64,000 nucleotides of DNA from Thermodesulfobacteriota bacterium. Its GTDB lineage: Bacteria > Desulfobacterota_D > UBA1144 > Nemesobacterales > Nemesobacteraceae. Location: NCBI GenBank assembly GCA_965209225.1, contig OZ242379.1:934762-998761 (forward strand), read 5' to 3'. Of this stretch, positions 11,765 to 44,288 are shown in pieces. The notes beneath the pieces were generated by a model. It did not search any database. It worked only from the letters and a program-made list of their open reading frames with translations, and had not been told where the DNA came from. Within the stretch, counting starts at the first letter, position 1. Every line of letters starts with the position of its first letter. Position numbers and translations under genes: made by a program.

Positions 11765-12232
11765 TTACGATTTGTCTGATGATAGCGCTAACGTTATTTC
11801 TTTTAATACCTGTTTACGATTTTTCTTGATTTCATGTTCCCAAAACCGGAGAACTGTCCATCCGTTTCGTTTTAGATAAGCTGTGTTTCTTCTGTCTCGC
11901 TTGCGGTTGTTTTCTATTTTTTCCCTCCAGAAGTCATTTTTCAGCAAATGCTTCCATTTGGGATAATACCAACCATGCCAAAAATCGCTGTCTAAAAATA
12001 CGCAAACTTTATACTTTTGGAAAACTATGTCTGGTCTACCTCTAATTGAAATGACATTTGTCTGGAATTTCTTTCTCGTGATTTTTTTTAGTGCGTGCAC
12101 AATTTCTTGTTCAAATTTCGTTTCTTTTGAGCGAATCTTTGCCATTAATTCTGAGCGCTTTTCCGTTGAAAGCGAGTCATTGCTTCGTTCTTTTTTGAAG
12201 TTGCGATTCAAATAATTTTTTGTTCTTTTCAT
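11765..12232 (-). CDS. vsr: very short patch repair endonuclease
   Basis: RSELMAKIRSKETKFE, RGRPDIVF, VFLDSDFWHG and WEHE motifs of Vsr. Confidence 0.9.
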   Translation of the reverse strand: MKRTKNYLNRNFKKERSNDSLSTEKRSELMAKIRSKETKFEQEIVHALKKITRKKFQTNVISIRGRPDIVFQKYKVCVFLDSDFWHGWYYPKWKHLLKNDFWREKIENNRKRDRRNTAYLKRNGWTVLRFWEHEIKKNRKQVLKEITLALSSDKS

Positions 12233-13260
12233 GAAGTTCCAGAATCAAAGATATCCGAAGCTTTAACACCGTGTTTTGAGAAATTAAAATTCTCATCTAA
12301 CAACTTCTTCCACTGGTTTAGACGATTTTTTTTGGCGTTTTGTCGCCAATAATGATTTAGTTTTTCTTTGTCCATTGTTTTTATCTCACATCTGATCATA
12401 TTAGCTTTGGAGTGGAGATTATAGGCGATTCGCGGAACCAAGACGGATTTTTCTTTGATTGTTAGTTTTTTTCTTCCTCCTGCAGTGAACAAGTCTCTCA
12501 GGTTGGAAGCTATGACTCCATGCTCAGTCATGAGATAAGCGGAGACTCGTTGGAATTTCATCAAGCTCTCGCCAAAAATTTCTGGGAAAAGAATCATTAT
12601 CTCCGCTTTAATTTTTTCTTGTTTCTCCCTACGTAATCCTCTGTAAGGTTTAATTATGAAGTCAGAAGATTTGTCATCATTTTTGTCGATCCACCATAAT
12701 TCTTCTCCATCTTTTAGTATGCTTCTGTAGTAATCTTTTATTTTTCCTATTTTCTCATCGTCTTTTCGCAGTTTGTCGTAATCAACACCGATTTTGTCGA
12801 AAATAGATTCCCCTCTGGGTAAATTCATGTCTATACGGTAACGGGGCGAGTGAGTGACGCTCACGCCGGGTAGACATTCTTGGTATGGTCGATATCGAAC
12901 ATCCGGTGCGCCGCCAAGTTTCCCAAACATTATGTAAATTCGCTCAACATCCTCTCTGGATGATTCGAGGACACTGTTGCCGGTGGAAATCCAATGATCC
13001 TTTGAAGTCATTTTTACCTCGACGCCAAAGTATTTTTTAGCAACTATATCAGGGAAGGAGCGGGAATCTGTTTGTTGAATCTCTCCTTCGAAGCCGATTT
13101 CTTTGGCTTCTTTGCGCATTTTTTCATATACGAAGTTCTCAAAATCAATTGGTGAAATATTTTCCTCTTCAGGTAGAAAGTCGATCAGTAGTCTTCGAGT
13201 TTCTTCGAGAAGAGTTATAAATTCTTCTTCATCAAGGTCTGGGTTATTCACATAGATCAT
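12229..13260 (-). CDS. putative type II restriction endonuclease (PD-(D/E)xK), located between dcm and vsr
   Basis: FPDIVAKKYFGVEVK fits PD-x9-ExK. Its start ATG overlaps the dcm stop (ATGA coupling) when started at the internal Met (ORF track 12229-13311). Synteny M-R-V. Confidence 0.5.
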   Translation of the reverse strand: MIYVNNPDLDEEEFITLLEETRRLLIDFLPEEENISPIDFENFVYEKMRKEAKEIGFEGEIQQTDSRSFPDIVAKKYFGVEVKMTSKDHWISTGNSVLESSREDVERIYIMFGKLGGAPDVRYRPYQECLPGVSVTHSPRYRIDMNLPRGESIFDKIGVDYDKLRKDDEKIGKIKDYYRSILKDGEELWWIDKNDDKSSDFIIKPYRGLRREKQEKIKAEIMILFPEIFGESLMKFQRVSAYLMTEHGVIASNLRDLFTAGGRKKLTIKEKSVLVPRIAYNLHSKANMIRCEIKTMDKEKLNHYWRQNAKKNRLNQWKKLLDENFNFSKHGVKASDIFDSGTS

Positions 13261-14051
13261 GAATGCAGGTTCACGTTTATAAATTCTTCGATTGATGTTG
13301 CGAGATACCACGCAAGTACGGGAGGAACTGCGTTACCAATTTGCTTGTAGGCTTGCGATGTTGAAGGATAAAAAATAAAATCGTCAGGGAACGACTGTAT
13401 TCTTGCAGCTTCTCTGGCGGATAATCGCCGTTTGCCATTCCAGTGGAATTCAATGTTCCCGTGATGTTCTGTTCTCATAGTGGGACCAGGCTTATCAGGA
13501 TCTAAAATGTTATTCCCCTGTCCTTTGTTTTTTTTCGCTTTGGACCAATAATGATTAGGTAATTCTCCCTCCCTAACGGTTTCTAAATCACCAATAGCTT
13601 CCCTTAAGGTAATCCATTTGTTTTTATTTGGGGGTTTCGGGTATTCAAATGGAGGCAATTTGCTTCTCTTGGTGCCGATTATAAAAATTCGTTTTCTAGT
13701 CTGTGGGACGCCATAATCCGCTGCGATAAGTAGTTTGTAAACAACGTGATAACCTAAGTCTTCAAAATTATTGATTATGGTTTTTATCGCTTCACCGCGG
13801 TCTATAGTGAGAAGCCCTTGCACATTTTCTGCTACGAACACCAGAGGATTAGTCAACTGGACAACTTTGGCCATGCTTCTGTACAATGCACCCCGCTCGC
13901 TTTTTAAGCCTTTTCGTCTTCCAGCATGGCTAAAGTCTTGGCAGGGAAATCCCCCTAGAACAATATCTGTATTTATCTGGTGGTGATTATTGAAGGGAAA
14001 CAGACTTGGGTCTTTGCTGTTGCATATCTCCGTGATATCAGCATTTACCAA
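13257..14051 (-). CDS. dcm: DNA (cytosine-5)-methyltransferase, C-terminal part (motifs IV-X), lacks motif I because of an inversion
   Basis: GGFPCQDFSHAG (IV), ENV (VI), QTRKRIFIIG (VIII), REAARIQSFPDDF (IX), GNAVPPVLA (X); begins with TTG right at the inversion junction, stop codon immediately upstream. Confidence 0.85.
   Translation of the reverse strand: MVNADITEICNSKDPSLFPFNNHHQINTDIVLGGFPCQDFSHAGRRKGLKSERGALYRSMAKVVQLTNPLVFVAENVQGLLTIDRGEAIKTIINNFEDLGYHVVYKLLIAADYGVPQTRKRIFIIGTKRSKLPPFEYPKPPNKNKWITLREAIGDLETVREGELPNHYWSKAKKNKGQGNNILDPDKPGPTMRTEHHGNIEFHWNGKRRLSAREAARIQSFPDDFIFYPSTSQAYKQIGNAVPPVLAWYLATSIEEFINVNLHS
14036..14048. repeat. left 13-bp inverted repeat (tatcagcatttac) at inversion junction
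   Basis: Perfect reverse complement of 14298-14310. Confidence 0.85.
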
Positions 14052-14081
14052 GTATCAACAACCAAGTAAACTTACAATCAG

Positions 14082-14342
14082 TTGAAGAAAAGTACTTCTT
14101 TTGATGACACGGTTATGGAAGATAGGTTTTCTGTAGTTTCCCTTTTCACTGGTTGTGGAGGTCTTGATTTGGGGTTTGTGGGTGGTTTTACCTTTCTCGG
14201 ACAAAAATACGAAAAAAGAAGATTCAAGATCATCTGGGCCAATGACATAGACAAGTCTTCGTGTAAAACTTTTAGAAGCTATTTCAGTCACAACATAGTA
14301 AATGCTGATACTGCAAGTTTTAAATGTCCTGATCTTTCCTAA
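14082..14342 (+). CDS. dcm: N-terminal fragment of the same C5-methyltransferase (motifs I-II) encoded on the opposite strand
   Basis: SLFTGCGGLDLGF (motif I) and IIWANDIDKSSCKTF (motif II); ends ...HNIVNAD then diverges, whereas the minus-strand part starts VNADITEI. Confidence 0.8.
   Translation: MKKSTSFDDTVMEDRFSVVSLFTGCGGLDLGFVGGFTFLGQKYEKRRFKIIWANDIDKSSCKTFRSYFSHNIVNADTASFKCPDLS
14298..14310. repeat. right 13-bp inverted repeat (gtaaatgctgata) at inversion junction
   Basis: Perfect reverse complement of 14036-14048; the 249-bp segment 14049-14297 between them is inverted relative to the rest of dcm. Confidence 0.85.
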
Positions 14343-14427
14343 GGCTGCGAACAATAGAGTCTGACACCTCACGGCTTTAAACAGAACGGTTTAAGCGGAG
14401 GAAAATGGACACGGGAGCACAGAACGC

Positions 14428-15303
14428 ATGGAAAGCGAACAGATCCCCAGTTACGACGACTTGCTCTGGCCGACTCTAAAAGCACTGGAAGCAAGAGGTG
14501 GTTCTGCTTCCATTCAGGAGATTTCGGAACAGATAGCTTTTGATCTGGATTTGTCCGAATCAATTCTGAGCATTCCACACAAGCAGGGTTATCGTTCAGA
14601 GGTTGATTACCGTGCTGCGTGGGCACGTACTATGCTGAAGCGTATAGGTGCGGTTAAGAACTCTTTGCGAGGAATCTGGGCGATCACGGAAGCAGGACGA
14701 GATATCTCTACGGAAGAAGAAGTACGGAAGCGGGTTAGCAAATGGAGGCGTCAAGATACCGTCGCACGCCGTAAAGTGGGTAAGACCAAACACGGAGAAG
14801 GTGATTCTTCAACAAGTTCTTACGCTCAGACTAATGAAGATGAACAGGACTGGGTAGATGAGCTTCTTGAAAATATTCGCAGTATTAAGCCCGAGGCATT
14901 TGAACGTCTTTGTCAGCGCATTTTGCGGGAAGCGGGATTCATCAAAGTAGAAGTAACAGGCCGTTCCGGTGATGGAGGGATTGATGGTGCCGGGATACTC
15001 AGGGTCAACCTTCTTTCGTTCCATATCAGATTTCAGTGCAAGAGGTATTCTGGTTCGGTCAGCGCAAGTGAAATCCGCAATTTCAGGGGGGCTCTGGTCG
15101 GTCGTGCGGACAAAGGCCTTTTTATTACCACGGGAAGATTCACCAAGGATGCAGAACGAGAAGCTGTCAGATATGGGGCCCCTGCTATTGACTTGATCAA
15201 CGGTGTTGATTTTTGTTATTTGCTGAAGAAATTCGGTCTGGGAGTAAGGAGTGAACCTGCTGAGATCGTCAAACCTCAGCCAGAATTTTTCGAGAATTTC
15301 TGA
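14428..15303 (+). CDS. Mrr-like restriction endonuclease (Mrr_N winged helix + Mrr_cat), putative Type IV modification-dependent enzyme
   Basis: N-terminal YDDLLWPTLKAL (Mrr_N) and GRSGDGGIDGAGI...FQCKRY...GLFITTGRFT catalytic-core pattern. Confidence 0.8.
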   Translation: MESEQIPSYDDLLWPTLKALEARGGSASIQEISEQIAFDLDLSESILSIPHKQGYRSEVDYRAAWARTMLKRIGAVKNSLRGIWAITEAGRDISTEEEVRKRVSKWRRQDTVARRKVGKTKHGEGDSSTSSYAQTNEDEQDWVDELLENIRSIKPEAFERLCQRILREAGFIKVEVTGRSGDGGIDGAGILRVNLLSFHIRFQCKRYSGSVSASEIRNFRGALVGRADKGLFITTGRFTKDAEREAVRYGAPAIDLINGVDFCYLLKKFGLGVRSEPAEIVKPQPEFFENF

Positions 15304-15470
15304 TGGGCAATCCAAGTGTAGTTGCCTTAGCTCGAGTTCGTCAAATGATAAAAGGTTTTGAACTCACTGATGGTAAGCACTTTTAGCGGAACACACTTTT
15401 TCGCTTGGCACTACTGTTTTGTGAAGTTTCCTGTTTTCGGGTTTTTACATCAGGACGACTGTACTGACAA

Positions 15471-15498
15471 GTGTTCCAACCATGGTGTTCCAACCATG
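15471..15498. repeat. tandem 14-bp direct repeat (gtgttccaaccatg x2) upstream of recombinase gene
   Basis: Exact adjacent duplication; each copy is mostly palindromic around ccatgg. Confidence 0.6.
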
Positions 15499-15699
15499 TC
15501 CTTGTTAACCTACTGTATCTTGGCACCTATCCTCACCCAACTGTGCATACGCCTACGTATAGAATTTTACCTAAGCTTAAGAAGTCCCATTTTTTAAATA
15601 GCTTTTTTCTTCCGACCAACCTCCAGTATGTCTGTAGTTATAGAAGCCTTGAAAACAAATCGGATTTTCTCCATTAAAATCAAAATTAAGGAGGAAAAA

Positions 15700-16659
15700 A
15701 TGAAAGCAGAAAGAAAGGTTTTCTATAACAAGGTAGTTTCTTCTGCGTTGGCGCAGAACACCCACATAGCGTATGAAAAGGGTTGGCGGTGTTTTGAGGG
15801 TTACTGCTTTTCCCGGAATATAGATCCGTTTTCCATAACGCCGGAACAAACTGCCGATTTCATCATTGACTTGGCAACCAATCCTCGTCCTAAGAGTGGA
15901 AAAACTCTTTCGATTAGAACGGTTACCCTCTATAGGAGTGGAATAAATAAAAAATACGTCGAGGCCGAAAAAAACTCTCCGATGAATCATCCCAAGGTGA
16001 TGGCCGTGTTCAAAGGATTGGCAAGAATCAAAGGGACAGCGCCACGCCGTGTAAATGCGCTGAGAGAACATGAGGTCAAAAGAATGCTAGACCAATGTAC
16101 GGATACGCTTATCGGCAAGCGCAATGCGGCGATTCTGGCCGTCGGATTTGCTGGAGCCCTGAGACGTTCTGAAATCTGTGCGCTCACAACGAACGATGTT
16201 GAGTTCATAGAACCGCAGAACGCAAAGGACCCTTGGAAGATGTTCATTTATATACGAAAATCTAAGACCGACCAGGAAGGCAGGGGGCATAAGATTGCGA
16301 TACCGGAAGGAAGGTACGTAAAACCGATAAAGAGGCTTCAGGACTGGCTGGAAGCATCAGGAATTACGGAAGGTCCTCTTTTTCAGACGATGAAACGGGG
16401 AGGTCATATTAGGGGTTTTCCGATGCACCATTCGGATATTCCGAGACTGGTAAAACATTACGCGGCCCTTATCGGGCTGGATCCGAAACAGGTGTCAGGA
16501 CATTCACTCCGCGCGGGGTTTGTTACAAGCGCGGCCGTTCACCACGCGCGTCTTGACAAGATAATGGAAGTCACAAGACACTCAAACCCATCTACAGTGA
16601 TGAGATATATAAGGGATGTTGGCTATTTCGTGGATCATGCCGGAGAAAAGTTTTTATGA
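15700..16659 (+). CDS. site-specific tyrosine recombinase (phage integrase family)
   Basis: GHSLRAGF (HxxR) and RHSNPSTVMRYIR (catalytic Tyr) boxes; start at ATG 15700 preceded by aaggagg RBS (ORF track starts 15628). Confidence 0.85.
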   Translation: MKAERKVFYNKVVSSALAQNTHIAYEKGWRCFEGYCFSRNIDPFSITPEQTADFIIDLATNPRPKSGKTLSIRTVTLYRSGINKKYVEAEKNSPMNHPKVMAVFKGLARIKGTAPRRVNALREHEVKRMLDQCTDTLIGKRNAAILAVGFAGALRRSEICALTTNDVEFIEPQNAKDPWKMFIYIRKSKTDQEGRGHKIAIPEGRYVKPIKRLQDWLEASGITEGPLFQTMKRGGHIRGFPMHHSDIPRLVKHYAALIGLDPKQVSGHSLRAGFVTSAAVHHARLDKIMEVTRHSNPSTVMRYIRDVGYFVDHAGEKFL

Positions 16660-20324: not shown

Positions 20325-21002
20325 CTAAATTTGTCCTGTCGCTCCTGAGTAGAGTTTCCAGAGAGGAACGAGTCGCACTAACAAGTCTCGTGTTTCACGG
20401 ATAAAAGGGACGGGGTTGTTTGCGACCTCGCCTGGTTCACATGTCTGCAAGGCGCAAAGATGCGGTCCTTCAAGGAAGCTCTCTGCTTTTGCAGGGTCAA
20501 GCGTCCGGTCAATTTCACCATATTTTTCGCACGCGACCAGATCGATGTCAGATCCAAGGCCAATGTCTTGCGCAAGGTTGACGACGGCCCGTGAATCGTT
20601 TTCAATTTCTCCGGCCATCGGGGCGTCGGGGGAGAGCAGCGGAGTGGGTACGTAAAGTCCCCGCCATACGCCTTCCGGCTGAAAACCCAGAAACAATTGA
20701 GCATCAAGTCTTTTGCGCCCTTCTCTGTAAAAAAGAGCGAGCATGTTGTCTTTGTAAGGACTTTGCCCCTTGGCAAAACGCATGTCCCGGTTTATCCGGG
20801 TAATCGTTTTATTAACGGCGGGGCGGATCTCACAGTCTTTGATCAATTCGCGGAGATCGGGACCTATGTCTGTAACAGCTTGGCGTAGCGGGCCAAGCAG
20901 GTTTTTCTCGTAGCGCTCGCGATTTTCCTCAAACCATGTCTTGTCGCGCGGACTGCCGAGATCCTTTAGAAAACGGAAAGTTTCTGAGGAGAAGCGCTTC
21001 AT
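20325..21002 (-). CDS. DUF2461 (TIGR02453) family protein
   Basis: MKRFSSETFRFLKDLGSPRDKTWFEENRERY N-terminus typical of the family; the upstream ORF extension overlapping the aminotransferase was ignored. Confidence 0.75.
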   Translation of the reverse strand: MKRFSSETFRFLKDLGSPRDKTWFEENRERYEKNLLGPLRQAVTDIGPDLRELIKDCEIRPAVNKTITRINRDMRFAKGQSPYKDNMLALFYREGRKRLDAQLFLGFQPEGVWRGLYVPTPLLSPDAPMAGEIENDSRAVVNLAQDIGLGSDIDLVACEKYGEIDRTLDPAKAESFLEGPHLCALQTCEPGEVANNPVPFIRETRDLLVRLVPLWKLYSGATGQI

Positions 21003-21060
21003 GGATGTGTTATCCGATTTCAGTCCGCTTGAATAGCGGACGTCACATAAGTAAGGGTGT

Positions 21061-22200
21061 CTATGCCGTTCCCAGCATTTCCGATACTTTGGCAACACCA
21101 GCTCCGCTCGTGAAGTCGTGTCCCAAGGATCCCAGAATGGATTCAAGGGCCGAGACAAACGCCACCATGTCGTTTCGGTCGACATCTCCTATGTGGGATA
21201 CCCTGAAGATTTTTCCCTTGGCGTGGTCCTGTCCGCCCGCGACGGTCATACCGAATTTTGCCTGAAGCTCGGAGATGATCTTCCCCGCCCCTATCTCTTC
21301 AGGAGCTACTCCCACGGTAAGAGCCGGGCTCGCCGCGTCAGTGGTGAAAAGATCTATGTTGATCGCTTGTAGCGCCTCTCGGGTCGCAAGCGACATCAGT
21401 TCGCGTTTTCTGTAAATATTGTCCATTCCCTCTTCCATGAACCCTTCTATAACCTTGCCGAGGCCGATTATCAGAGTGACGGCGGGAGTCCATGGCGTCG
21501 TGTTTTTCTGGGCGCTTTTCTGGTAGTCGGCAAAGTTGAGATAGAACTTCGGGAGATCCGAGGTTTTGCTGAATTCCCAGGCTTTCTCGCTCATCGCCGC
21601 GAATGAAAGTCCCGGAGGAAGCATGAAAGCCTTCTGCGAGCCGCCAACTAGAACATCTATTCCCAGCTTGTCAAACGGGAGAGGAAACACCCCGACGGCG
21701 GTTATGCCGTCAACTATGAGCAGCACGTCGTCTCTTTTTGATGTAATTGCCGCGACTTGGTCGGTGGGATGCTTGACCCCTGTGGAGGTCTCGCTTGCCT
21801 GCATCAGAACAGCCCTTATCGAGGGGTCGCTATCGAGTTTTTCCTCTATCACTGCCGGGGAAACCGCCTCGCCCCAAGCAACCTCTATTTCATCCACCTC
21901 TAGTCCGTAGGCCCTCGCGATTTTCCCCCATCTCTCTCCGAACTTTCCGCCGTTTACCGTGATCACCTTGTCGCCCGCGCGAAGGGTGTTTACCACGGCT
22001 CCTTCCATTGCGCCGGTTCCCGAAGCCGCAAGTATGAAAACTTCGGTTTCTGTCTGAAAAATCTGTTTCAAACCTTCTCTTGCCTTCTCGAATACGGCTT
22101 CAAATTCCTTGGTTCTGTGATGGATGAGCGGTCTTGCCATCTCAACCATTATTTCGCTTGGGACCGCCACGGGGCCGGGGGTCAGCAGCAATCTTTTCAT
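21061..22200 (-). CDS. class V aminotransferase (alanine-glyoxylate / serine-pyruvate aminotransferase family)
   Basis: LLTPGP start, GGSQKA PLP-lysine motif. Confidence 0.85.
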   Translation of the reverse strand: MKRLLLTPGPVAVPSEIMVEMARPLIHHRTKEFEAVFEKAREGLKQIFQTETEVFILAASGTGAMEGAVVNTLRAGDKVITVNGGKFGERWGKIARAYGLEVDEIEVAWGEAVSPAVIEEKLDSDPSIRAVLMQASETSTGVKHPTDQVAAITSKRDDVLLIVDGITAVGVFPLPFDKLGIDVLVGGSQKAFMLPPGLSFAAMSEKAWEFSKTSDLPKFYLNFADYQKSAQKNTTPWTPAVTLIIGLGKVIEGFMEEGMDNIYRKRELMSLATREALQAINIDLFTTDAASPALTVGVAPEEIGAGKIISELQAKFGMTVAGGQDHAKGKIFRVSHIGDVDRNDMVAFVSALESILGSLGHDFTSGAGVAKVSEMLGTA

Positions 22201-26623: not shown

Positions 26624-27409
26624 GTGTCCATTGAAGCCATAGAGCGAGATTTTCGTGAGAAAATTTCGACCAAGATTCGTCTCGAGGCAGAAGGTGTGGA
26701 GCGCTTCCGCGTGTTTACCCCTTTTTTGTTCGAGGATGGAGATCATTTAGCAATCGTTCTCAAAAGAGAGGGAGCGCGATGGTTGCTCTCCGATGAGGCT
26801 CATACATATATGCACCTTACCTACGATATCAATGAACGGGATCTTCACAGTGGTACGCGCCAGAAAATAATCTCCAACACATTGTCTACATTCAAGGTGG
26901 AGGATCGCCATGGAGAGTTGGTGCTTGATGTGCCGGATCAGCGTTACGGTGACGCGTTATATTCTTTTATACAGGCGCTCCTGAAGATTTCTTACGTATC
27001 ATATCTGTCGCGAGGCCGTATCCAGTCCACTTTCGCAGAGGATTTTCGAACATTCCTGAAAGAAGTTGTTCCGCGAGAGCGCATGAGTTTTGACTGGAGC
27101 GACAAAGAGCGTGATAACCTTGGGATTTACACGGTGGATTGCCGAATCAACAGCATGCCCCGACCGCTTTTTGTACATGCTCTTTCCAATGACGGTAAGA
27201 CCCGCGATGCCACAATTGCGTTGCTTCAGTTTGAAAGATGGGGGATTCAGTTTCGTTCTCTGGCTGTTTTTGAGGATCAGGAGTCGATCAATCGAAAGGT
27301 ACTGGCACGTTTCAGCGATGTATGCGAGAAGCAGTTCTCAAGCCTGACCGCGAACCGCGAGAGAATCACACGTTTTCTGGAGGAAAATATTTCCTCCATC
27401 TCCGGTTAG
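26624..27409 (+). CDS. hypothetical protein (IS inserted just upstream)
   Basis: 261-aa ORF, no confident family assignment. Confidence 0.45.
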
Positions 27410-38250: not shown

Positions 38251-40203
38251 ATGTCAAGCAAAAGGGAATCGCGGATTCTGAAACTGCTCAGCGAAGACAA
38301 GGGGAAAAGCCTCTCCGAGGGCAATATCCTCAGGGGGCTTGATATGCCCGAGAGAAAAAGAGAGAAACTCCGGGCTACGCTGAAGAGTATGGCCCTCGAG
38401 GGGAAGCTTAAAAGAACTTCCAAGGGTCTCTACCGTCTTCGAAAACATCGGAAAAAGGGTGTTGCCAAAAACAGTCGGCATCTGGATTTCCCCGTATCTC
38501 TTCTTAACGGGAACCGCAGGAAAATCGTTCCAGCCGGCATCTCAAACGGTAGCACCCTGAGGGCTCTGGCCGACTTGAGAGAAAACACGGGGGGATTTGT
38601 TGCCTGTCCCAGAAAAGCGGAACTCTTCGAGTATGAGATTGAAACCGGAGGGTGGAAAAAGAATTTTTCCGGCGGGGAACTCGTAGTCATAGAGATTAAG
38701 CCCGGGAAACAGTCTGCAAGAGTGACCGAGCGCCTAGGGATATCCGGAGAAATCGAAACTGAAAAAAGGGGGATTATCTCCGAGTATGGTCTCGCGAAGG
38801 GTTTTTCGCGCAACGTGATAAAAGAAGTCGCGGGTCTGAGCGCGGAGTTATCAAACGGGAACCTTTCTTCGAGAGTGAATCTTGAAAAAGAGACTATTTT
38901 CACCATAGACGGGGATGACGCGAAGGATTTTGACGATGCGGTAGGCATAACAAAAATCCGCAGGGGGTACAGACTCCGGGTAAGTATAGCGGACGTTTCT
39001 CATTACGTGGCTTGCGGAAGCGCGTGTGACGAGGAGGCCGCCCGCAGGGCCACCAGCACCTACCTTTCAGACAGGGTGATTCCTATGCTTCCCAAGAGAC
39101 TTTCAAACGATCTCTGCAGCCTGCGCCCCGGAAGAAGACGGCTTACCAAGACGGTCGAGATGGATTTCGATTTTTCGGGAAAGCTCAGGGATTCTAGGAT
39201 ATACAACAGCGTGATAAAAAGCTGCGCGAGGCTTACGTACTCCGAAGCCGCGGCCGTTTTGGAGGGAAGCGGCACTGCTTCATCCCCCCGCGGCAAAAAC
39301 ATCGTTTCTTCCCTGCTTCTGATGAAAGAGCTTTACCGCAAGCTCAGGGAGCTTAGGATCGGCAAAGGCGGTCTTGACTTTGATTTTCCCGAGGCCGTGC
39401 TGCTTCGCGATTCCAAGGGAGAAGTAAGCGACGTCGACAGGCTTAAACGGAATGTCGCCCACGAGATAATAGAAGAGTTCATGATCATGGCCAACTCCGT
39501 CGTCGCGGAGTTTGTTTTCAGAAACGGTTTCGAATCGATTTACAGGATTCACGAACCCCCGGACCCGGATTCCATAGAGCAACTGCGCGAAAGCCTTCTC
39601 AAAACAGGTATCAAGGCAAACTTCGGAGGCCGGGTCAGGCAGCAGGACATCCAGGCGGTGATGAAAGCTGCTTCGGGAAGAAAGGACCGGGAGCAGATAA
39701 ATTTTATGATTCTGCGTGCGCTCAAAAAAGCCGTTTACTCAACAAAGCATGTTCCCCACTTCGGTCTCGCTATAGACGATTACACCCACTTCACTTCCCC
39801 CATAAGAAGGTATCCTGACCTTGTTGTTCACAGAATTATCGACGAAATACTGCAGAAAAGAACCCCTTCGTACGACTCCGCCCGTCTCAAGCGGATAGCC
39901 GAACGCTGCTCGATTCTGGAGAAAACGGCCGAGGATGCGGAGCGCCAGTTTATGAACCTTGAGACGGCGAATTTCATGAAAAGCCGAATCGGTGACATAT
40001 TCCACGGGAAAGTGCTGAGCATACATTCCTTCGGGATTTTCATAGAAATAGAAGAGCACTTCGTCGAGGGGCTTATCCCCGAGCGCTTTTACAAGATCAG
40101 GGGCAGAAAAAGAAAGTGGTTCGAACTCGGGGAGGAAGTTCGCGTGGAGCTTGTATCAGCGGACATGGAGAGAAGAAGGCTTACTTTCAATCTGGCATCC
40201 TGA
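38251..40203 (+). CDS. rnr: ribonuclease R
   Basis: RNB domain (TIDGDDAKDFDDAVG) plus C-terminal S1 domain. Confidence 0.95.
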   Translation: MSSKRESRILKLLSEDKGKSLSEGNILRGLDMPERKREKLRATLKSMALEGKLKRTSKGLYRLRKHRKKGVAKNSRHLDFPVSLLNGNRRKIVPAGISNGSTLRALADLRENTGGFVACPRKAELFEYEIETGGWKKNFSGGELVVIEIKPGKQSARVTERLGISGEIETEKRGIISEYGLAKGFSRNVIKEVAGLSAELSNGNLSSRVNLEKETIFTIDGDDAKDFDDAVGITKIRRGYRLRVSIADVSHYVACGSACDEEAARRATSTYLSDRVIPMLPKRLSNDLCSLRPGRRRLTKTVEMDFDFSGKLRDSRIYNSVIKSCARLTYSEAAAVLEGSGTASSPRGKNIVSSLLLMKELYRKLRELRIGKGGLDFDFPEAVLLRDSKGEVSDVDRLKRNVAHEIIEEFMIMANSVVAEFVFRNGFESIYRIHEPPDPDSIEQLRESLLKTGIKANFGGRVRQQDIQAVMKAASGRKDREQINFMILRALKKAVYSTKHVPHFGLAIDDYTHFTSPIRRYPDLVVHRIIDEILQKRTPSYDSARLKRIAERCSILEKTAEDAERQFMNLETANFMKSRIGDIFHGKVLSIHSFGIFIEIEEHFVEGLIPERFYKIRGRKRKWFELGEEVRVELVSADMERRRLTFNLAS

Positions 40204-40212
40204 CCGTCTTTT

Positions 40213-41331
40213 TCAGTTAACGGTATCCGGCAAGCGGTAGCTTGTGCTTCGTCCGCCGCCGGGGTTCTGAATAAAAATGCCGCGTGACTTTAAGTGCTGA
40301 ATGTCCCGTAATGCCGTATCTGTGGAGCACTTGGCCAGTTTTGCATATTTTGAGGTGTTCATGTGTCCCTTAAAATCATCCTCGAGCATACGGTTAATAA
40401 TCAGACGCTGACGCTTGTTGACAGGCTGCCGATTAATCTTTTCCCATAACTGCGATTTAAACAAGACGGTGCTCAGCGTATCTTCAGCGCTGGCAATTGC
40501 GCGACCAAGGCAATCCAGAAACCATTCAAGCCAACCCGTTACCTCCGGCGTGCCGCGTTGCTGGTTTTCCAACTGGTCATAATAATCCTTGCGCTCAGAT
40601 TCAAATTGCGATGAAAGGCTGTAAAAGCGGTCTACCATGCCGTCAGCGCGCGCCAGGGCCATATCGGCAATCGCCCTTGCAATACGTCCATTACCGTCTT
40701 CAAATGGATGAATCGTCACAAACCACAGATGGGCAATACCGGCTCTGAGCACGGGGTCAGTATCATCTTTGCTCTCAAACCATACCAGAAACCTCGTCAT
40801 CTCACGTTCAAGGTGCTCTGCGTTCGGAGCCTCGAAATGAACTTTTTCACGTCCTGCAGGACCTGAAACCACTTGCATGGGATCGGATTCGACGGAGCGC
40901 CAGCCGCCGACTGTGATGCGACGCATGCCGCTGCGACTTGTTGGAAACAGTGCCGCATGCCAGTCAAACAATCTGTCTTTTGTTAAGGGCCTGGCAGATT
41001 GCTGGGTCGCATCCAGCATCATTTCAACAATACCCTCAACATCTTGGTTCACTGACGTAATGCCGGCGATATCAATGCCTAGTCGGCGAGCGATTGATGA
41101 GCGAACCTCTTGCGGGTTCAGATTTTCTCCCTCGATGGCTGATGATTTAACAACATCGCTTGTCAGTGTTCCGAGACTTGCTTCTTGCTTGAGTTCGAAA
41201 CCTAATCCTTCCATTCTGCCTAACAGACGACCCTGACGGTGTCGAATATCTGCAAGCTTGGAAGCGAGTTTTTTGAGATTCCAAGTGAAGTCCGGCCAGT
41301 TATGATGCTCATGTATCCACATATCATTCAC
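40213..41331 (-). CDS. Fic family protein with DUF4172-type N-terminus and C-terminal wHTH; compositionally foreign
   Basis: HPFEDGNGRIARAIAD Fic motif, SSAIEGE inhibitory motif; codon usage (CTG/CGT/GCG-rich) differs from neighbours. Confidence 0.9.
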   Translation of the reverse strand: MNDMWIHEHHNWPDFTWNLKKLASKLADIRHRQGRLLGRMEGLGFELKQEASLGTLTSDVVKSSAIEGENLNPQEVRSSIARRLGIDIAGITSVNQDVEGIVEMMLDATQQSARPLTKDRLFDWHAALFPTSRSGMRRITVGGWRSVESDPMQVVSGPAGREKVHFEAPNAEHLEREMTRFLVWFESKDDTDPVLRAGIAHLWFVTIHPFEDGNGRIARAIADMALARADGMVDRFYSLSSQFESERKDYYDQLENQQRGTPEVTGWLEWFLDCLGRAIASAEDTLSTVLFKSQLWEKINRQPVNKRQRLIINRMLEDDFKGHMNTSKYAKLAKCSTDTALRDIQHLKSRGIFIQNPGGGRSTSYRLPDTVN

Positions 41332-41396
41332 CGCGTTGTTTGCAGTGATTGTATCTTGTATTAATCACGCAAGCAAGAAAATCGCCGCAAAATATA

Positions 41397-41421
41397 CGGT
41401 GAATAAATGTGCTATTCACCG
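41397..41421. promoter_or_regulatory. perfect 9-bp-arm palindrome CGGTGAATA-n7-TATTCACCG upstream of foreign Fic gene (operator candidate)
   Basis: Inverted repeat within the 266-bp Fic-tRNA intergenic region. Confidence 0.4.
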
Positions 41422-41597
41422 CATAACAGCATGGATGGCTTTTTTCGGTTCTTCGTATATATGACGATTACCTAAGCTTGGATTAGGCGTATATGTTTCG
41501 ATACGGTTTGCTTTTTCCAAGAATAAGGTTCGGCCGGCAATACTTGGCTTCCGACGGAGTTTGCTGTCTCTGGATAGAATAACTCGGGGTGAGCTGA

Positions 41598-41688
41598 TGG
41601 CGGAGGGAGTGGGATTCGAACCCACGAGGGCCAAAAAGACCCCACTGGTTTTCGAGACCAGCGCCTTAAACCGCTCGGCCATCCCTCC
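41598..41688 (-). tRNA. tRNA-Ser (CGA), long variable arm, CCA encoded
   Basis: Reverse complement reads GGAGGGATGGCCGAGCGGTTTAAGGCG...CTCGAAA anticodon loop...GGTTCGAATCCCACTCCCTCCGCCA. Confidence 0.9.
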
Positions 41689-41783
41689 TCCGACACGCAA
41701 AACAGGCTACCGAAGCCCGAGGGGCAAGGCAACATCTCCCGGAAAGTTTTGTTATTAACGCCTCTGTGTAAACTTAAGCGGAT

Positions 41784-44288
41784 ATGATTGAAAGCTACTT
41801 TACCCCTGAGGCTGCAGAGTTCATCAGGGAGGCAATAACTGAGGCCTATGGAAACGAGGTCTTTTTAGTCGGCAGGGTAAATGAAAATTCTCTGGTCTGC
41901 GATATAAAAGTCCTTGCGCGCGGCAACCGCCAGGCGGTTCCGGCCATCCTTGACGCGGCGAAAACGGGGAACGTGGTTGTGCATAATCATCCCTCGGGCA
42001 ACCTCGAACCTTCACCCCAGGACGTGGCAGTCGCTTCGGCTTTCGGAAACAAGGGCGTCGGTTTCTACATAGTGGACAGCGAGGTCGAGAAGGTGTACGT
42101 AGTTGTTGAGCCTTTTGTTCCGGGGGAGAAGGTACGTGTTGACAATGAATCCGCGAGGGAATATCTTCTGCCCGCAGGTCCCGTGGCCCGCGTCCTGGGA
42201 GAGAAATACGAGCACAGGGAGGAGCAGCTGGAAGTCCTCTCAAACGTAATTGACGCATTCAACGAGGAACACCTCTCAATGATAGAGGCCGGCACGGGCA
42301 CCGGAAAAACTCTTTCCTACCTCATCCCTTCCATTCTCTGGTCAATTGGCAACAGTGAGAGGGTTCTGGTCTCAACAAACACCATCAATCTTCAGGAACA
42401 GCTGATAAACAAGGATCTTCCCCTTCTTCGGGATCTTTTCCCGAGGAAATTTGATTACGCTCTCGTTAAGGGAATGAGAAACTACTTCTGTCTTCTCCGC
42501 GGCGAAGCCGTCGGGCAGGATCTTTTCGATTTTATAGACGACGGGGAAAGAGGTTCCATGAAGGATATTCTTGAGTGGGCCAGGACCACCTCGGACGGCT
42601 CACTTTCCGATCTTGCGCTCACGCCCCCTGACGATGTGTGGGACAGGGTGTCTGCGGAAAGCGAAAGCTGCCCGGGGACCAAGTGCCCCCACTATTCGAG
42701 CTGCTTTTTCTTCAAGTCGCGGAGGGATCTCTCGAGGGCCTCGGTGCTGGTTGCCAACCACCACATGCTTTTCTCCGATATTGCTATAAAAGGGACTGCG
42801 GGACCCGATTCGGATTTCGGGATAATTCCCCGCTACGCGAAGGTCGTTTTCGACGAGGCGCACAATATCGCCGAGGCGGCCACTTCGCACTTCAGTCTGA
42901 AACTTAGCAAGCACGGAATTGCGAAGACGCTTTCAAAGCTTCGTTCCCGGAAAAACAGGGACAAGGGGCTTGTATCCTACATCTCGCACCTCGCGCAGAA
43001 AGAAAAGGATTCCGCCCTCAGGGAGGTTTTCGAGCGCTCGGCCGGCGGGCTTGCGAGGGCCGTTGAGCGCATAGAGACGGTAAGCGAAGAGGTCTTTAAT
43101 TCGCTTTACGGTTTTGGGGCGGATCTCTCGGGCGAAACGTCGATAAGCCTGAGGCTCACAGAAGAGGTTATGCGGCACGAGAAGTGGCCTGCCGTTGAGG
43201 AGCGGTTCGGGGCGCTTGAGAAAACTCTCTTTTCGCTTGAAAACGAGATTGCCCATCTGCTCGGAGTAGTCGAGGGATCACCTCACGCGGATTCCCACAT
43301 AAAACTCACCGCTGAGCTTGGAGGCATCGCTAAGAGGTCCCTTGCTTTCCGCGAAGCCATAGGAAGGTTTTTTGGCGAGCAGGACGAGAGCTATATAAGA
43401 TGGTTTGAAGGGAACCGCAGAAGGGCGGCGATTTTCTGCTCCATCAACCTCTCCCCGCTTGATGTATCCAAGGAGCTTTCGGAAAAGCTCTACTCGAAAA
43501 CCAAAACCGTCGTTATGACTTCCGCGTCGCTTGCCGTGGATAAGAATTTCGATTTCCAGAGGAAAAACATCGGGCTTTCGGATAATGAAAGATTCAGGGG
43601 GCTTATTGTTGATTCACCGTTTGATTTCCGAACGCAGTCCCTGCTGCTGGTCCCGTCGGATATGCCCGAGCCCGGGCGCGAGGACTACGAAGATTCCCTC
43701 GCGCGGATACTCTCGGACTCGATCTCCGTAACGAACGGAAACGCCCTCGTGCTTTTCACCTCTTATTCCTCGCTTAACAGGGTTTATGAAAAGACGGGGA
43801 AAATTCTTGAGACCATCGGGGCCGTCCCGGTCAGTCTTTTCAGGCAGGGGGAAATGCCCAGGGGTCTGCTGCTTGAAAAATTCAAAACGCTTGGGAACTC
43901 GGTGCTTTTCGCGACCGACAGCTTCTGGGAAGGAGTAGACATTCCCGGGGACTCCCTGAAGATGGTCGTTATATGCAGACTTCCCTTCAAGGTTCCCACG
44001 GATCCGGTTACGGAGGCGAAAATCGAGTACATGGAAAAACAGGATATGGATTCGTTTCGCGAATACATACTTCCCCACGCGGTACTCAGGTTCAAGCAGG
44101 GCTTCGGAAGACTCATACGCACCAAGACGGACCGCGGTGTTGTTATGGTTCTTGACAGGCGCATCGTGTCGAAGTACTACGGGAAATTCTTTATCAACTC
44201 CGTTGCGGGGAGCGGCTTCTTCTGCGCGAAGACGGAACAGGTACTCGGACGGATGCGGGATTTTTTCTCTGAGGAGCGAGAGCACTGA
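41784..44288 (+). CDS. dinG: RadC-like JAB/MPN domain fused to DinG-family (Rad3/XPD-like) ATP-dependent DNA helicase
   Basis: N-terminal HNHPSGNLEPSPQD JAMM/RadC motif (aa ~60-75); then Walker A AGTGTGKT, DEAH box VVFDEAHN and C-terminal helicase motifs. Confidence 0.8.
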   Translation: MIESYFTPEAAEFIREAITEAYGNEVFLVGRVNENSLVCDIKVLARGNRQAVPAILDAAKTGNVVVHNHPSGNLEPSPQDVAVASAFGNKGVGFYIVDSEVEKVYVVVEPFVPGEKVRVDNESAREYLLPAGPVARVLGEKYEHREEQLEVLSNVIDAFNEEHLSMIEAGTGTGKTLSYLIPSILWSIGNSERVLVSTNTINLQEQLINKDLPLLRDLFPRKFDYALVKGMRNYFCLLRGEAVGQDLFDFIDDGERGSMKDILEWARTTSDGSLSDLALTPPDDVWDRVSAESESCPGTKCPHYSSCFFFKSRRDLSRASVLVANHHMLFSDIAIKGTAGPDSDFGIIPRYAKVVFDEAHNIAEAATSHFSLKLSKHGIAKTLSKLRSRKNRDKGLVSYISHLAQKEKDSALREVFERSAGGLARAVERIETVSEEVFNSLYGFGADLSGETSISLRLTEEVMRHEKWPAVEERFGALEKTLFSLENEIAHLLGVVEGSPHADSHIKLTAELGGIAKRSLAFREAIGRFFGEQDESYIRWFEGNRRRAAIFCSINLSPLDVSKELSEKLYSKTKTVVMTSASLAVDKNFDFQRKNIGLSDNERFRGLIVDSPFDFRTQSLLLVPSDMPEPGREDYEDSLARILSDSISVTNGNALVLFTSYSSLNRVYEKTGKILETIGAVPVSLFRQGEMPRGLLLEKFKTLGNSVLFATDSFWEGVDIPGDSLKMVVICRLPFKVPTDPVTEAKIEYMEKQDMDSFREYILPHAVLRFKQGFGRLIRTKTDRGVVMVLDRRIVSKYYGKFFINSVAGSGFFCAKTEQVLGRMRDFFSEEREH

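What the first reader, a model, noticed from the sequence alone, without database searches (positions are those of the whole stretch)
40204..41700. Compositionally foreign Fic gene wedged between rnr and tRNA-Ser, with a perfect palindromic operator in its promoter
This is the third Fic paralog in the window. It uses CTG/CGT/GCG-rich codons unlike the AGA/AGG-rich host genes. It sits immediately downstream of the 3' end of tRNA-Ser(CGA), a classic integration hotspot, and only 9 bp from the rnr stop. Its upstream region carries CGGTGAATA-n7-TATTCACCG. It looks like a single-gene horizontal acquisition.
Basis: partly seen in the sequence, partly recalled or inferred. Interest (0 to 1): 0.5.

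Follow-up and report, generated by a model that had tools for sequence, protein, structure and literature searches.

The report
Self-regulated Fic enzyme with six-site operator
This is an ordinary member of a known family of protein-modifying (Fic) enzymes that carry their own DNA-binding domain. It was acquired long ago at a tRNA-linked hotspot in a Dadabacteria lineage, and the palindrome is the best-preserved pair in a six-site operator array that travels with the gene across a dozen bacterial phyla.

Summary
All sequence observations hold. A 369-aa Fic gene lies at 40213-41322 (-), 9 bp from the rnr stop and 275 bp downstream of tRNA-Ser(CGA). CGGTGAATA-n7-TATTCACCG is at 41398-41422. Arg/Leu codon use is atypical, though G+C is not.

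The interpretation needs revision.
1. The host is Candidatus Dadabacteria. The gene occupies the same locus in relatives down to 76% rnr identity. One relative keeps only a 336-bp 3' remnant. More distant relatives carry other cargo at the same tRNA. This is an old acquisition at a variable hotspot, inherited vertically since. It is neither recent nor a chimeric join.
2. The protein is a class II Fic AMPylase (DUF4172 + Fic + winged helix). Its closest solved relative is Coxiella CbFic2 (PDB 8CIL, TM 0.89).
3. The palindrome is two of six 11-bp half-sites, TGCGGTGA(A/T)TA. Their spacing is fixed at 18/16/21/18/16 bp and they enclose the -35, -10 and ribosome-binding site. In 81 loci from about 12 phyla the motif is 160-720 times enriched upstream of this gene, and no neighbouring gene is conserved. 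The base at half-site position 6 covaries with the first residue of the recognition helix. The CbFic2 subfamily uses TGAAGCGATTA in a similar layout.

The best reading is autorepression through the protein's own winged helix, as shown experimentally for CccR. That step is inferred here, not demonstrated.

The parts
40213..41322 (-). Fic gene, 369 aa. [quoted passage not shown] Catalytic motif HPFEDGNGRIAR at 205-216. Inhibitory motif S60-xxx-E64-G65 lies N-terminal to it, which defines class II.
   Evidence: Pfam: DUF4172 116 bits, Fic 62 bits. PDB 8CIL: E 8.7e-96 by sequence and TM 0.89-0.91 by fold. AF2 model: pLDDT 88.8, helices 303-313, 323-330 and 334-346 plus a beta-hairpin. Motif positions.
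41329..41331 (-). GTG that opens the mechanical ORF. Probably not the start codon, because homologues begin at the MWIH... ATG at 41322.
   Evidence: The closest homologues are 368-370 aa and align from the ATG.
41325..41335 (-). Operator half-site F, CGCGGTGAATG, centred at -8. It overlaps the ribosome-binding region directly before the ATG.
   Evidence: PWM score 12.2. Site F is present at -8/-9 in 52 of 82 loci.
41341..41351 (+). Operator half-site E, TGCAGTGATTG on the + strand, so in reverse orientation relative to the gene. Centred at -24. Its outer end forms part of the -10 box.
   Evidence: PWM score 12.1. Reverse sites occur at -24/-25 in 57 of 82 loci.
41348..41353 (-). Putative -10 hexamer TACAAT, fused to half-site E.
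   Evidence: Read from the sequence. The homologous hexamer is TATAAT in 25 and TACAAT in 6 of 66 loci. The window promoter falls below the tool's sigma-70 threshold.
41361..41371 (-). Decayed half-site D, TGCG-TGATTAA, with a 1-nt deletion relative to the consensus. It abuts the -35.
   Evidence: Read from the sequence. Not scored by the PWM. Site D is intact in L086 as TGCTGTGAATA and sits at -42/-43 in 56 of 82 loci.
41371..41376 (-). Putative -35 hexamer TTGCTT, 17 bp upstream of the -10.
   Evidence: Read from the sequence. A TTGNNN hexamer at a 17-bp spacer occurs in 50 of 66 loci.
41379..41389 (-). Operator half-site C, TGCGGCGATTT, centred at -62.
   Evidence: PWM score 12.7. Positional peak at -60 to -64.
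41395..41405 (+). Operator half-site B, TACGGTGAATA on the + strand, so reverse relative to the gene. Centred at -78.
   Evidence: PWM score 15.8. Positional peak at -76 to -80.
41413..41423 (-). Operator half-site A, TGCGGTGAATA, a perfect consensus match centred at -96. This is the other arm of the palindrome.
   Evidence: PWM score 19.3. Positional peak at -93 to -98.
41424..41597 (.). 174-bp spacer between the operator array and the tRNA 3' end. It is conserved in close Dadabacteria relatives and has no counterpart in other phyla. Its tRNA-proximal 35 bp survive in the L091 deletion.
41598..41688 (-). tRNA-Ser(CGA), the fixed landmark of the variable hotspot.
   Evidence: ARAGORN on the window. 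The same tRNA sits next to the helicase gene in L084, L085, L086, L090 and L091.
38251..40203 (+). rnr (RNase R/II family, RNB+S1). A convergent host gene that marks the other edge of the hotspot.
   Evidence: Pfam. Homologues are named Candidatus Dadabacteria.
41784..44288 (+). RadC-like/DinG-type helicase. A host gene that flanks the tRNA in all relatives examined.
   Evidence: Pfam. Synteny.

Best explanation

**Origin.** It entered a Candidatus Dadabacteria lineage long ago, at the variable site immediately 3' of tRNA-Ser(CGA). Since then it has been inherited vertically. One relative has lost it by deletion.

**Regulation.** The gene brings its own control region. Six 11-bp half-sites, TGCGGTGA(A/T)TA, are arranged as two 55-bp modules (forward, reverse, forward). 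Centre-to-centre spacings are 18, 16, 21, 18 and 16 bp. The promoter-proximal module encloses the -35, supplies part of the -10, and covers the ribosome-binding site.

The most likely mechanism is that Fic dimers bind these sites through the recognition helix (residues 334-346) and repress their own transcription. This would keep a potentially toxic enzyme at a low, buffered level in whatever host carries the module. By analogy with CbFic2, operator binding may also shift the enzyme between AMPylating and de-AMPylating states.

**Shown here:** domain identity, fold, locus history, the motif array with its conservation and positioning, and the covariation with the recognition helix.

**Inferred:** that the Fic protein is the factor that binds the sites, that binding represses, the identity of the enzyme's target, and any link between DNA binding and catalysis.
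For: **Identity**
- Pfam finds DUF4172 plus Fic.
- CbFic2 (PDB 8CIL) matches at E 8.7e-96 by sequence and TM 0.89-0.91 by fold.
- The AF2 model (pLDDT 88.8) shows a three-helix winged HTH.

**Operator array**
- Upstream alignments of 83 loci show the same six sites.
- Motif density is 36 sites/kb upstream against 0.23/kb in the flanks. This is 160-fold at a PWM score threshold of 9 and 720-fold at 13.
- The modal count is six sites per locus.
- Spacings are fixed: 18 bp in 109 cases and 16 bp in 118 cases.
- Site centres fall at -97, -79, -63, -42, -24 and -8.
- The -10 is fused to site E, and a TTGNNN hexamer lies 17 bp upstream in 50 of 66 loci.
- Five sites score within 99 bp in the window, and there is no other cluster in 64 kb.

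**Who binds**
- No neighbouring gene family occurs in more than 4 of 81 loci.
- Only one extra motif cluster lies outside Fic promoters.
- Residue 334, the first residue of the recognition helix, is the top-ranked of 369 alignment columns for association with half-site position 6 (eta2 0.58).
  - N/T/S/K go with T or C at that position. Q and P go with A. H goes with GTAGA.
- Six CbFic2-subfamily loci use TGAAGCGATTA with near-identical spacing (16 and 17 bp), and their recognition helix is different.

**Precedent**
- CccR autorepresses through inverted repeats at its -35/-10 (PMC9755527).
- SoFic binds the first 100 bp upstream of its own gene (bioRxiv 10.64898/2026.07.09.737422).
- CbFic2 binds DNA, and DNA switches its activity (PMC10628234).

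**History**
-.
Against: - No binding or expression data exist for this subfamily. CbFic2 bound random DNA at 37-220 nM, and deleting its HTH did not abolish binding (PMC10628234).
- The residue-base covariation is not corrected for phylogeny, and position 6 is mixed within many loci.
- Half-sites 16-18 bp apart lie on roughly opposite DNA faces. How a symmetric dimer engages them is unclear.
- The window's own promoter is weak by E. coli rules (8 of 12 matches) and was not called by the scan.
- Site D has decayed in this genome and in L001.
- Atypical codon use that persists after long residence is unexplained.
Confidence: 0.7

Rival explanations
1. Recent single-gene horizontal acquisition at the tRNA. 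The gene would be new to this strain and its codon bias would be an un-ameliorated donor signature.
For: - Codon use is atypical.
- The gene is adjacent to a tRNA.
- The family is spread across phyla at 60-81% identity.
- A tRNA lies within 450 bp upstream in 4 of 60 other loci, as it does in the window. tRNA-Ser lies within 2.5 kb in 7 of 60.
Against: - The same gene sits at the same junction in relatives with rnr identity of 92, 90 and 76%.
- A degraded remnant is present in L091.
- Fic divergence tracks rnr divergence, for example 85% against 77% aa identity to L086. The codon bias is the same in L001 and L086.
- Third-position identity to proteobacterial copies is near saturation at 0.45-0.55.
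- There is no att-like repeat and no integrase.
Confidence: 0.07
2. Assembly artefact: a contaminant fragment joined into the contig between rnr and the tRNA.
For: Only the codon-usage contrast.
Against: - G+C is continuous across the region.
- The same junctions appear in independent sponge and other metagenome assemblies, from 3.6 kb to 1.9 Mb.
- A deletion derivative exists in L091.
Confidence: 0.01
3. The repeats are real sites, but they are read by another factor, such as a conserved host regulator, or they act as transposon ends or as RNA structure. The Fic protein itself would not bind them.
For: - There is no direct binding evidence.
- CbFic2's DNA binding appeared non-specific and partly independent of the HTH (PMC10628234).
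- Sites B and C were picked up as a terminator-like hairpin.
Against: - No protein other than Fic is consistently linked to the sites.
- The motif is essentially private to this promoter.
- The motif changes together with the recognition helix, both within the family and between subfamilies.
- Sites A-D lie upstream of the -10 and so are not transcribed.
- Their register with the -35, the -10 and the ATG is fixed. This does not fit mobile-element termini.
Confidence: 0.1
4. The physiological role is a single-gene anti-phage (abortive-infection) toxin of the SoFic kind. The operator array would serve only to keep it silent until infection. This rivals a housekeeping or regulatory role, not the autorepression model.
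For: - The PADLOC SoFic model matches the full length at 150 bits.
- SoFic-type class II Fic proteins protect against phage (PMC12249575).
- The gene sits in a variable hotspot.
- The window also carries a true SoFic-like paralog, restriction-modification genes and a PDC-S01-like ATPase.
Against: - The NCBIfam SoFic equivalog scores 48.7 bits against a cut-off of 550.
- The fold match to SoFic is only TM about 0.6.
- The gene is stably and vertically retained, evolving no faster than rnr. That is unusual for defence cargo.
- There is no room for a small downstream antitoxin like AS1, because the rnr stop is 9 bp away.
Confidence: 0.25

Closest known systems
CbFic2 (Coxiella burnetii CBU_0822, PDB 8CIL; PMC10628234)
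   Same: - The domain order is the same: DUF4172 dimerisation helix, N-terminal inhibitory helix, Fic motif, C-terminal winged HTH.
- Sequence identity is 43-45%, at E 8.7e-96. The fold matches at TM 0.89-0.91.
- Its own promoter has inverted half-sites at 16/17-bp spacing, with TATAAT fused to a reverse site.
   Different: - The half-site is TGAAGCGATTA rather than TGCGGTGA(A/T)TA, and the recognition helix is SRTTAYREL rather than STDTALRDI.
- C. burnetii shows one three-site module, not two.
- CbFic2 was studied as a host-directed effector that AMPylates histone H3, using random DNA. No specific site has been reported for it.
- The present gene belongs to a sponge-associated or free-living Dadabacterium.
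CccR (Yersinia pseudotuberculosis YPK_0951, PDB 7XUX; PMC9755527)
   Same: - It is a class II Fic with a C-terminal HTH that dimerises through its N-terminus.
- It represses its own promoter by binding inverted repeats near the -35 and -10.
- Its box contains a GATTA/TAATC-like core.
   Different: - The sequence relationship is distant (E 5e-4; TM about 0.5).
- Its operator is two 10-bp boxes separated by 26 bp, not six sites at 16-21 bp.
- It is a T6SS-secreted effector that targets FtsZ. Here there is no conserved T6SS gene or any other conserved neighbour.
SoFic (Shewanella oneidensis SO_4266; PADLOC 'SoFic' defence system)
   Same: - It is a class II Fic plus winged HTH and forms a dimer.
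- It binds the first 100 bp upstream of its own gene (bioRxiv 10.64898/2026.07.09.737422).
- The PADLOC SoFic model matches the full length of the present protein.
   Different: - It has Fic_N (PF13784) rather than DUF4172. The fold match is TM about 0.6, and the NCBIfam equivalog scores far below its cut-off.
- The true SoFic-like gene of this window is the paralog at 417-1598.
tRNA-linked genomic islands
   Same: - The content immediately 3' of a tRNA gene varies among relatives.
- Codon use is atypical.
- An IS element sits at the same spot in L090.
   Different: - There is no integrase and no direct repeat of the tRNA 3' end.
- The cargo here is a single gene of 1.2 kb plus a 174-bp spacer.
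- It has been resident since before the clade diversified.

Membership tests
Fic/Fido AMP-transferases, class II | Catalytic motif HxFx(D/E)GNGRxxR | tested here: met
   HPFEDGNGRIAR at residues 205-216. Pfam Fic scores 62 bits against a cut-off of 24.
Fic/Fido AMP-transferases, class II | Inhibitory motif (S/T)xxxE(G/N) in the same chain, N-terminal to the Fic motif | tested here: met
   S60-SAI-E64-G65. It aligns with T62SAIEG67 of CbFic2 (PMC10628234).
Fic/Fido AMP-transferases, class II | AMPylation or de-AMPylation activity | not testable with these tools
CbFic2-type (DUF4172-Fic-wHTH) | N-terminal DUF4172 domain carrying the dimerisation helix | tested here: met
   PF13776 scores 116 bits over residues 5-86. 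The model has a helix at 16-38. Dimerisation itself was not tested.
CbFic2-type (DUF4172-Fic-wHTH) | [quoted passage not shown] | tested here: met
   The AF2 model has helices 303-313, 323-330 and 334-346 plus a hairpin. Foldseek matches 8CIL at TM 0.89-0.91 over 366-368 columns.
CbFic2-type (DUF4172-Fic-wHTH) | DNA binding that induces dimerisation and switches AMPylase to de-AMPylase | not testable with these tools
   Known only for CbFic2 in vitro (PMC10628234).
Autorepressing Fic-HTH regulators (CccR-like) | Inverted repeats overlapping the gene's own -35/-10 | tested here: met
   Sites D-F enclose the -35, the -10 and the ribosome-binding site, in the window and in most of the 81 loci.
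Autorepressing Fic-HTH regulators (CccR-like) | The protein binds those repeats and represses | not testable with these tools
   Indirect support only: exclusivity of linkage and helix-operator covariation.
Autorepressing Fic-HTH regulators (CccR-like) | T6SS-associated secretion | tested here: not met
   No conserved neighbour of any kind lies within 3 kb in 81 loci. The window neighbours are rnr, a tRNA and a helicase.
SoFic anti-phage defence system | Match to the curated SoFic models | tested here: inconclusive
   The PADLOC SoFic model scores 150 bits over the full length. The NCBIfam equivalog scores 48.7 bits against a cut-off of 550. The N-terminal domain is DUF4172, not Fic_N.
Class I FicT/FicA toxin-antitoxin | Separate small antitoxin gene supplying the inhibitory helix | tested here: not met
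   The inhibitory motif lies in the same chain. There is no conserved adjacent ORF, and only 9 bp separate the gene from the rnr stop.
tRNA-integrated genomic island | Integrase gene and direct repeat of the tRNA 3' end at the distal junction | tested here: not met
   There is no integrase between rnr and the helicase. The best local match of the tRNA 3' 50 nt to the junction scores 7.0 against a null of 7.1 +/- 2.2.
tRNA-integrated genomic island | Variable content at the tRNA among relatives | tested here: met
   - L084: a 71-aa HTH gene.
- L085: a 5.4-kb block with peptidase S8.
- L086: Fic plus bPH_2.
- L090: DUF4437, Fic and an IS481 transposase.
- L091: a Fic remnant.

The most novel reading that the evidence does not exclude
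The six-site array may be more than an operator. It could be the specific DNA ligand that assembles several Fic dimers on the gene's own promoter and allosterically sets the enzyme's AMPylase/de-AMPylase balance. The 1.2-kb unit would then be a self-contained, host-independent cassette that senses its own dose, with its cis-code co-evolving with residue 334 of the recognition helix across phyla. It would follow that Coxiella CbFic2 is primarily an autoregulated intrabacterial enzyme with a defined operator (TGAAGCGATTA), rather than a non-specific DNA binder dedicated to host histones.
Probability: 0.25. Interest if true: 0.65.

Novelty: new member of a known kind. Interest (0 to 1): 0.4.

Why it matters
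For this genome the finding is ordinary. It is a long-resident accessory Fic gene at a tRNA hotspot, neither a fresh transfer nor an artefact.

The wider value lies in the comparative result. The CbFic2-type Fic enzymes carry a promoter-operator array with them, conserved in sequence, spacing and register across about a dozen phyla. Cis-regulatory conservation over that range is rare. I found no description of this motif in the searched literature. The CbFic2 paper used random DNA and left sequence specificity open (PMC10628234).

The predicted half-sites are TGCGGTGA(A/T)TA here and TGAAGCGATTA for Coxiella. Together with the specificity residue at position 334, they give Fic biochemists a direct and inexpensive test of whether specific DNA controls dimerisation and the AMPylation/de-AMPylation switch.

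Tried and rejected
- **Close DNA relatives.** Megablast against E. coli genomes found nothing. Distant blastn against plasmids gave only matches of about 65% identity to other Fic genes. No donor can be named.
- **att-like repeat.** No repeat of the tRNA 3' end was found at the Fic/rnr junction.
- **Conserved partner gene.** An antitoxin, integrase or secretion gene was sought in 81 loci. No family occurs in more than 4 loci. DUF4143 ATPases and other Fic paralogs recur a few times.
- **ORFs between upstream tRNAs and Fic in other phyla.** There was no obvious integrase.
- **Sigma-70 scan of the window.** It called no promoter. The -35/-10 assignment therefore rests on the cross-locus alignment.
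- **Literature search for the half-site strings.** It returned only unrelated primer hits.
- **Strict per-locus covariation.** Position 6 is mixed within many loci, so only a statistical association with residue 334 can be claimed.
- **Terminator reading of the B/C hairpin.** Rejected, because it is the divergent operator pair.
- **Read coverage.** It could not be examined.
Full report
**1. What is at the coordinates**

The region holds one long ORF on the minus strand, 40213..41331.
- Its first in-frame ATG is at 41322. It gives a 369-aa product that begins MWIHEHH, like its closest homologues of 368-370 aa.
- The gene converges on rnr (RNB+S1, 38251-40203). Nine bases separate the two stop codons.
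- tRNA-Ser(CGA) lies at 41598-41688 on the same strand as the Fic gene, with its 3' end 275 bp from the ATG.
- The palindrome CGGTGAATA-n7-TATTCACCG is at 41398-41422.
- Three ORFs in the window carry a Fic motif, so 'third paralog' is right.
- G+C across the gene (0.50) matches its surroundings.
- Synonymous codon use is atypical. AGA+AGG make up 0.19 of Arg codons against about 0.55, and CTG makes up 0.35 of Leu codons against about 0.2. The gene is among the seven most deviant of 44 ORFs.
- A perfect 9-nt inverted repeat is not rare in 64 kb (9 observed, 2.5 in shuffles). Only about 0.01 is expected in a 270-bp promoter region.

**2. The protein**

- Pfam finds DUF4172 (residues 5-86), Fic (115-226) and a weak C-terminal HTH match.
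- The catalytic motif HPFEDGNGRIAR (205-216) is intact. So is the inhibitory motif S60-xxx-E64-G65 N-terminal to it, which makes this a class II Fic protein.
- The closest solved structure is Coxiella burnetii CbFic2, PDB 8CIL. It matches at E 8.7e-96 by sequence.
- An AlphaFold model (pLDDT 88.8) matches 8CIL at TM 0.89-0.91. SoFic and CccR follow at TM 0.5-0.6.
- The model ends in a winged helix-turn-helix: helices 303-313, 323-330 and 334-346, then a beta-hairpin.

Published work on relatives gives the functional frame.
- CbFic2 binds DNA through this domain. DNA promotes dimerisation and shifts it from AMPylase to de-AMPylase. Only random DNA was used, and sequence specificity was left open (PMC10628234).
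- CccR represses its own promoter through inverted repeats near the -35 and -10 (PMC9755527).
- SoFic binds the first 100 bp upstream of its own gene (bioRxiv 10.64898/2026.07.09.737422).

**3. The palindrome is part of a conserved six-site array**

I fetched 80 loci encoding relatives (60-80% identity) from genomes of many phyla. These include Alpha- and Gammaproteobacteria, Desulfobacterota, Cyanobacteria, Bdellovibrionota, Chlorobiaceae, Planctomycetota, Verrucomicrobiota, Chloroflexota, Acidobacteriota, Gemmatimonadota and Armatimonadota. Lining up the 125 bp before the start codon shows the same layout almost everywhere.

- *Layout.* Six 11-bp half-sites, TGCGGTGA(A/T)TA (15.3 bits), are oriented forward, reverse, forward, forward, reverse, forward.
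  - Their centres fall at about -97, -79, -63, -42, -24 and -8.
  - The forward-to-reverse spacing is 18 bp in 109 cases.
  - The reverse-to-forward spacing is 16 bp in 118 cases.
  - About 21 bp separate the two three-site modules, so each site repeats 55 bp downstream.
- *Enrichment.* Site density is 36 per kb upstream against 0.23 per kb in 637 kb of flanks. That is 160-fold at the lenient threshold and 720-fold at the strict one. The modal number of sites per locus is six.
- *Promoter.* The promoter is built into the array. TATAAT, or a one-off variant, is fused to the reverse site E. A TTGNNN hexamer lies 17 bp upstream, just before site D, in 50 of 66 loci. Site F covers the ribosome-binding region.
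- *This window.* Sites A (41413-41423), B (41395-41405), C (41379-41389), E (41341-41351) and F (41325-41335) score. Site D (41361-41371) has a 1-nt deletion. The -35 is TTGCTT and the -10 is TACAAT. No other cluster exists in the 64 kb.

**4. Who reads the sites**

This step is inferred. Four observations point to the Fic protein itself.
- *Linkage.* No neighbouring gene family occurs in more than 4 of 81 loci. The only protein always linked to the array is Fic.
- *Exclusivity.* The motif is private to this promoter. Only one further cluster lies within +/-4 kb across the 81 loci.
- *Covariation within the family.*
  - Residue 334 opens the recognition helix in the model.
  - Of all 369 alignment columns, it associates best with the base at half-site position 6 (eta2 0.58).
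  - N, T, S or K at 334 go with T or C at position 6, with 0-2% A.
  - Q at 334 goes with 58% A.
  - The two loci with H at 334 use GTAGA in place of GGTGA at half-site positions 4-8.
  - Fisher's test gives 9e-9, uncorrected for shared ancestry.
- *Covariation between subfamilies.*
  - I examined six loci of the CbFic2 subfamily, including one whose protein is 99% identical to the crystallised protein.
  - All use the half-site TGAAGCGATTA with near-identical 16/17-bp spacing.
  - All have TATAAT fused to a reverse site.
  - Their recognition helix reads SR(A/T)TAYREL instead of SxDTALRDI.

Sites A-D lie upstream of the -10, so an RNA-structure explanation does not apply. The fixed register with promoter elements also argues against transposon ends.

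**5. History of the locus**

- *Host.* rnr homologues identify the host as Candidatus Dadabacteria.
- *Relatives that carry the gene.* It sits beside rnr in L001-L003, which are sponge metagenomes with rnr 92% identical. The whole 1.4-kb region is about 94% identical there. It also sits beside rnr in L090 (rnr 90%) and L086 (rnr 76%).
From this I infer co-location on one contig. I checked it directly only for the loci named above.
- *Loss.* L091 (rnr 85%) looked empty. In fact it retains 336 bp of the Fic 3' end (window 40220-40555, 86% identity), fused directly to the tRNA-proximal spacer (window 41563 onward). A 1-kb deletion removed the promoter and two thirds of the gene.
- *More distant Dadabacteria.* L084 and L085 (rnr 65-67%) keep the tRNA next to the helicase gene. 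Between it and rnr they carry a 71-aa HTH gene or a 5.4-kb block with a peptidase S8 gene, and no trace of Fic.
- *Continuing insertions.* L090 has gained a DUF4437 gene and an IS481 transposase at the same spot, and L086 a bPH_2 gene.
- *Rates.* Fic divergence parallels rnr divergence (85% against 77% aa identity to L086). The unusual codon bias is shared by the L001 and L086 copies.
- *Foreign origin.* Outside Dadabacteria, Fic stays at 75-81% identity while rnr falls to about 45%. The gene is therefore ultimately foreign. Synonymous positions against proteobacterial copies are near saturation.
- *No island hallmarks.* There is no integrase and no att-like repeat.
- *tRNA adjacency elsewhere.* It recurs in other phyla: a tRNA within 450 bp upstream in 4 of 60 other loci, as in the window, and tRNA-Ser within 2.5 kb in 7 of 60.

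In summary, this is an old insertion at a hotspot, inherited vertically, occasionally lost, and not an assembly artefact.

**6. Mechanism and its rivals**

The best-supported model is a self-contained cassette. A class II Fic enzyme keeps its own transcription low by binding, as dimers, to a six-site operator array that overlaps its promoter and translation start. By analogy with CbFic2, occupancy of specific DNA may also set its catalytic mode.

The enzyme's target is unknown. A defence or toxin role is possible and is compatible with autorepression.
- For it: the PADLOC SoFic model matches at 150 bits, the gene sits in a hotspot, and other defence genes lie in the window.
- Against it: the gene fails the NCBIfam SoFic equivalog by a wide margin and behaves like a stably inherited gene.

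How a symmetric dimer engages half-sites 16-18 bp apart is unresolved. So are two further points: why there are two 55-bp modules, and why the codon bias persists.

**7. Novelty**

The gene is a new member of a known kind, the DUF4172-Fic-wHTH enzymes of the CbFic2 type. Autoregulation by Fic-HTH proteins is established for CccR.

What I could not find described is the family-wide operator code and its six-site architecture, or the prediction that CbFic2 has a specific site in its own promoter. This gives the finding moderate interest for the Fic field. As a feature of this particular genome it is of low interest.

Noticed in passing
window 7395-8288 (+): A second Fic gene appears to be disrupted. 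A 139-aa ORF carries the inhibitory motif (SNRIEGN). A separate 115-aa ORF in another frame carries HPFDDGNGR, with a gap at 7814-7941. This is probably a frameshifted pseudogene.
   Followed up: partly
window 417-1598 (-): The third Fic paralog is the true SoFic-like one. It has Fic_N + Fic + HTH_13 and scores 384 bits on the PADLOC SoFic model. It is a candidate single-gene anti-phage system.
   Followed up: partly
window 11765-16659: A low-G+C block (0.35-0.48) with atypical codons holds Vsr, an unknown 360-aa ORF, a C5 cytosine methylase, an Mrr-type endonuclease and a phage-type integrase. It looks like a restriction-modification or defence islet.
   Followed up: partly
window 58353-59501 (+); also L007, L014, L024, L069, L089: An AAA_14/DUF4143 ATPase (PADLOC PDC-S01, 182 bits) with atypical codons lies in the window. 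The same family sits next to the Fic gene in a handful of loci from other phyla.
   Followed up: no
window 20325-21185 (-) and 26624-27409 (+): The DUF2461 and DUF1828 genes share the very low AGA/AGG usage (0.11) seen in the Fic gene. They may be further foreign genes.
   Followed up: no
L001 about 5560-5640 (equivalent to window 41598-41688): In the 189-kb sponge-metagenome relative, tRNA-Ser(CGA) lacks about 40 nt (anticodon arm and variable arm) and ARAGORN does not call it. L002, from another sponge sample, has it intact. This is either an assembly error or a real tRNA deletion.
   Followed up: partly
L091 7042-7377: A Dadabacterium with 85% rnr identity keeps only a 336-bp 3' remnant of the Fic gene. 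A 1-kb deletion fused it to the tRNA-proximal spacer.
   Followed up: yes
L090 6944-10660: At the same hotspot, a DUF4437 gene is inserted between rnr and Fic, and an IS481-family transposase between Fic and the tRNA. A 36-bp copy of the rnr 3' region (window 40067-40102) lies beside the Fic stop.
   Followed up: partly
L044 5250-5277: This is the only extra operator pair found outside a Fic promoter in 81 loci. TGCGGTGAATA and TGCGGTGAATC are arranged divergently, about 160 bp downstream of the Fic stop. It may be a second regulated target.
   Followed up: no
window 40204-40212: The convergent rnr and Fic genes are 9 bp apart with no terminator-like structure between them. In L086 they overlap by 27 bp. 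Read-through antisense transcription is therefore possible.
   Followed up: no
Fic versus rnr, window against L086: Among identical amino acids, third-codon positions are more conserved in Fic (0.72) than in rnr (0.60). Fic genes from very different hosts mostly keep about 0.48-0.50 G+C and low AGA/AGG use. This suggests constraint on the nucleotide sequence itself, and it is unexplained.
   Followed up: partly
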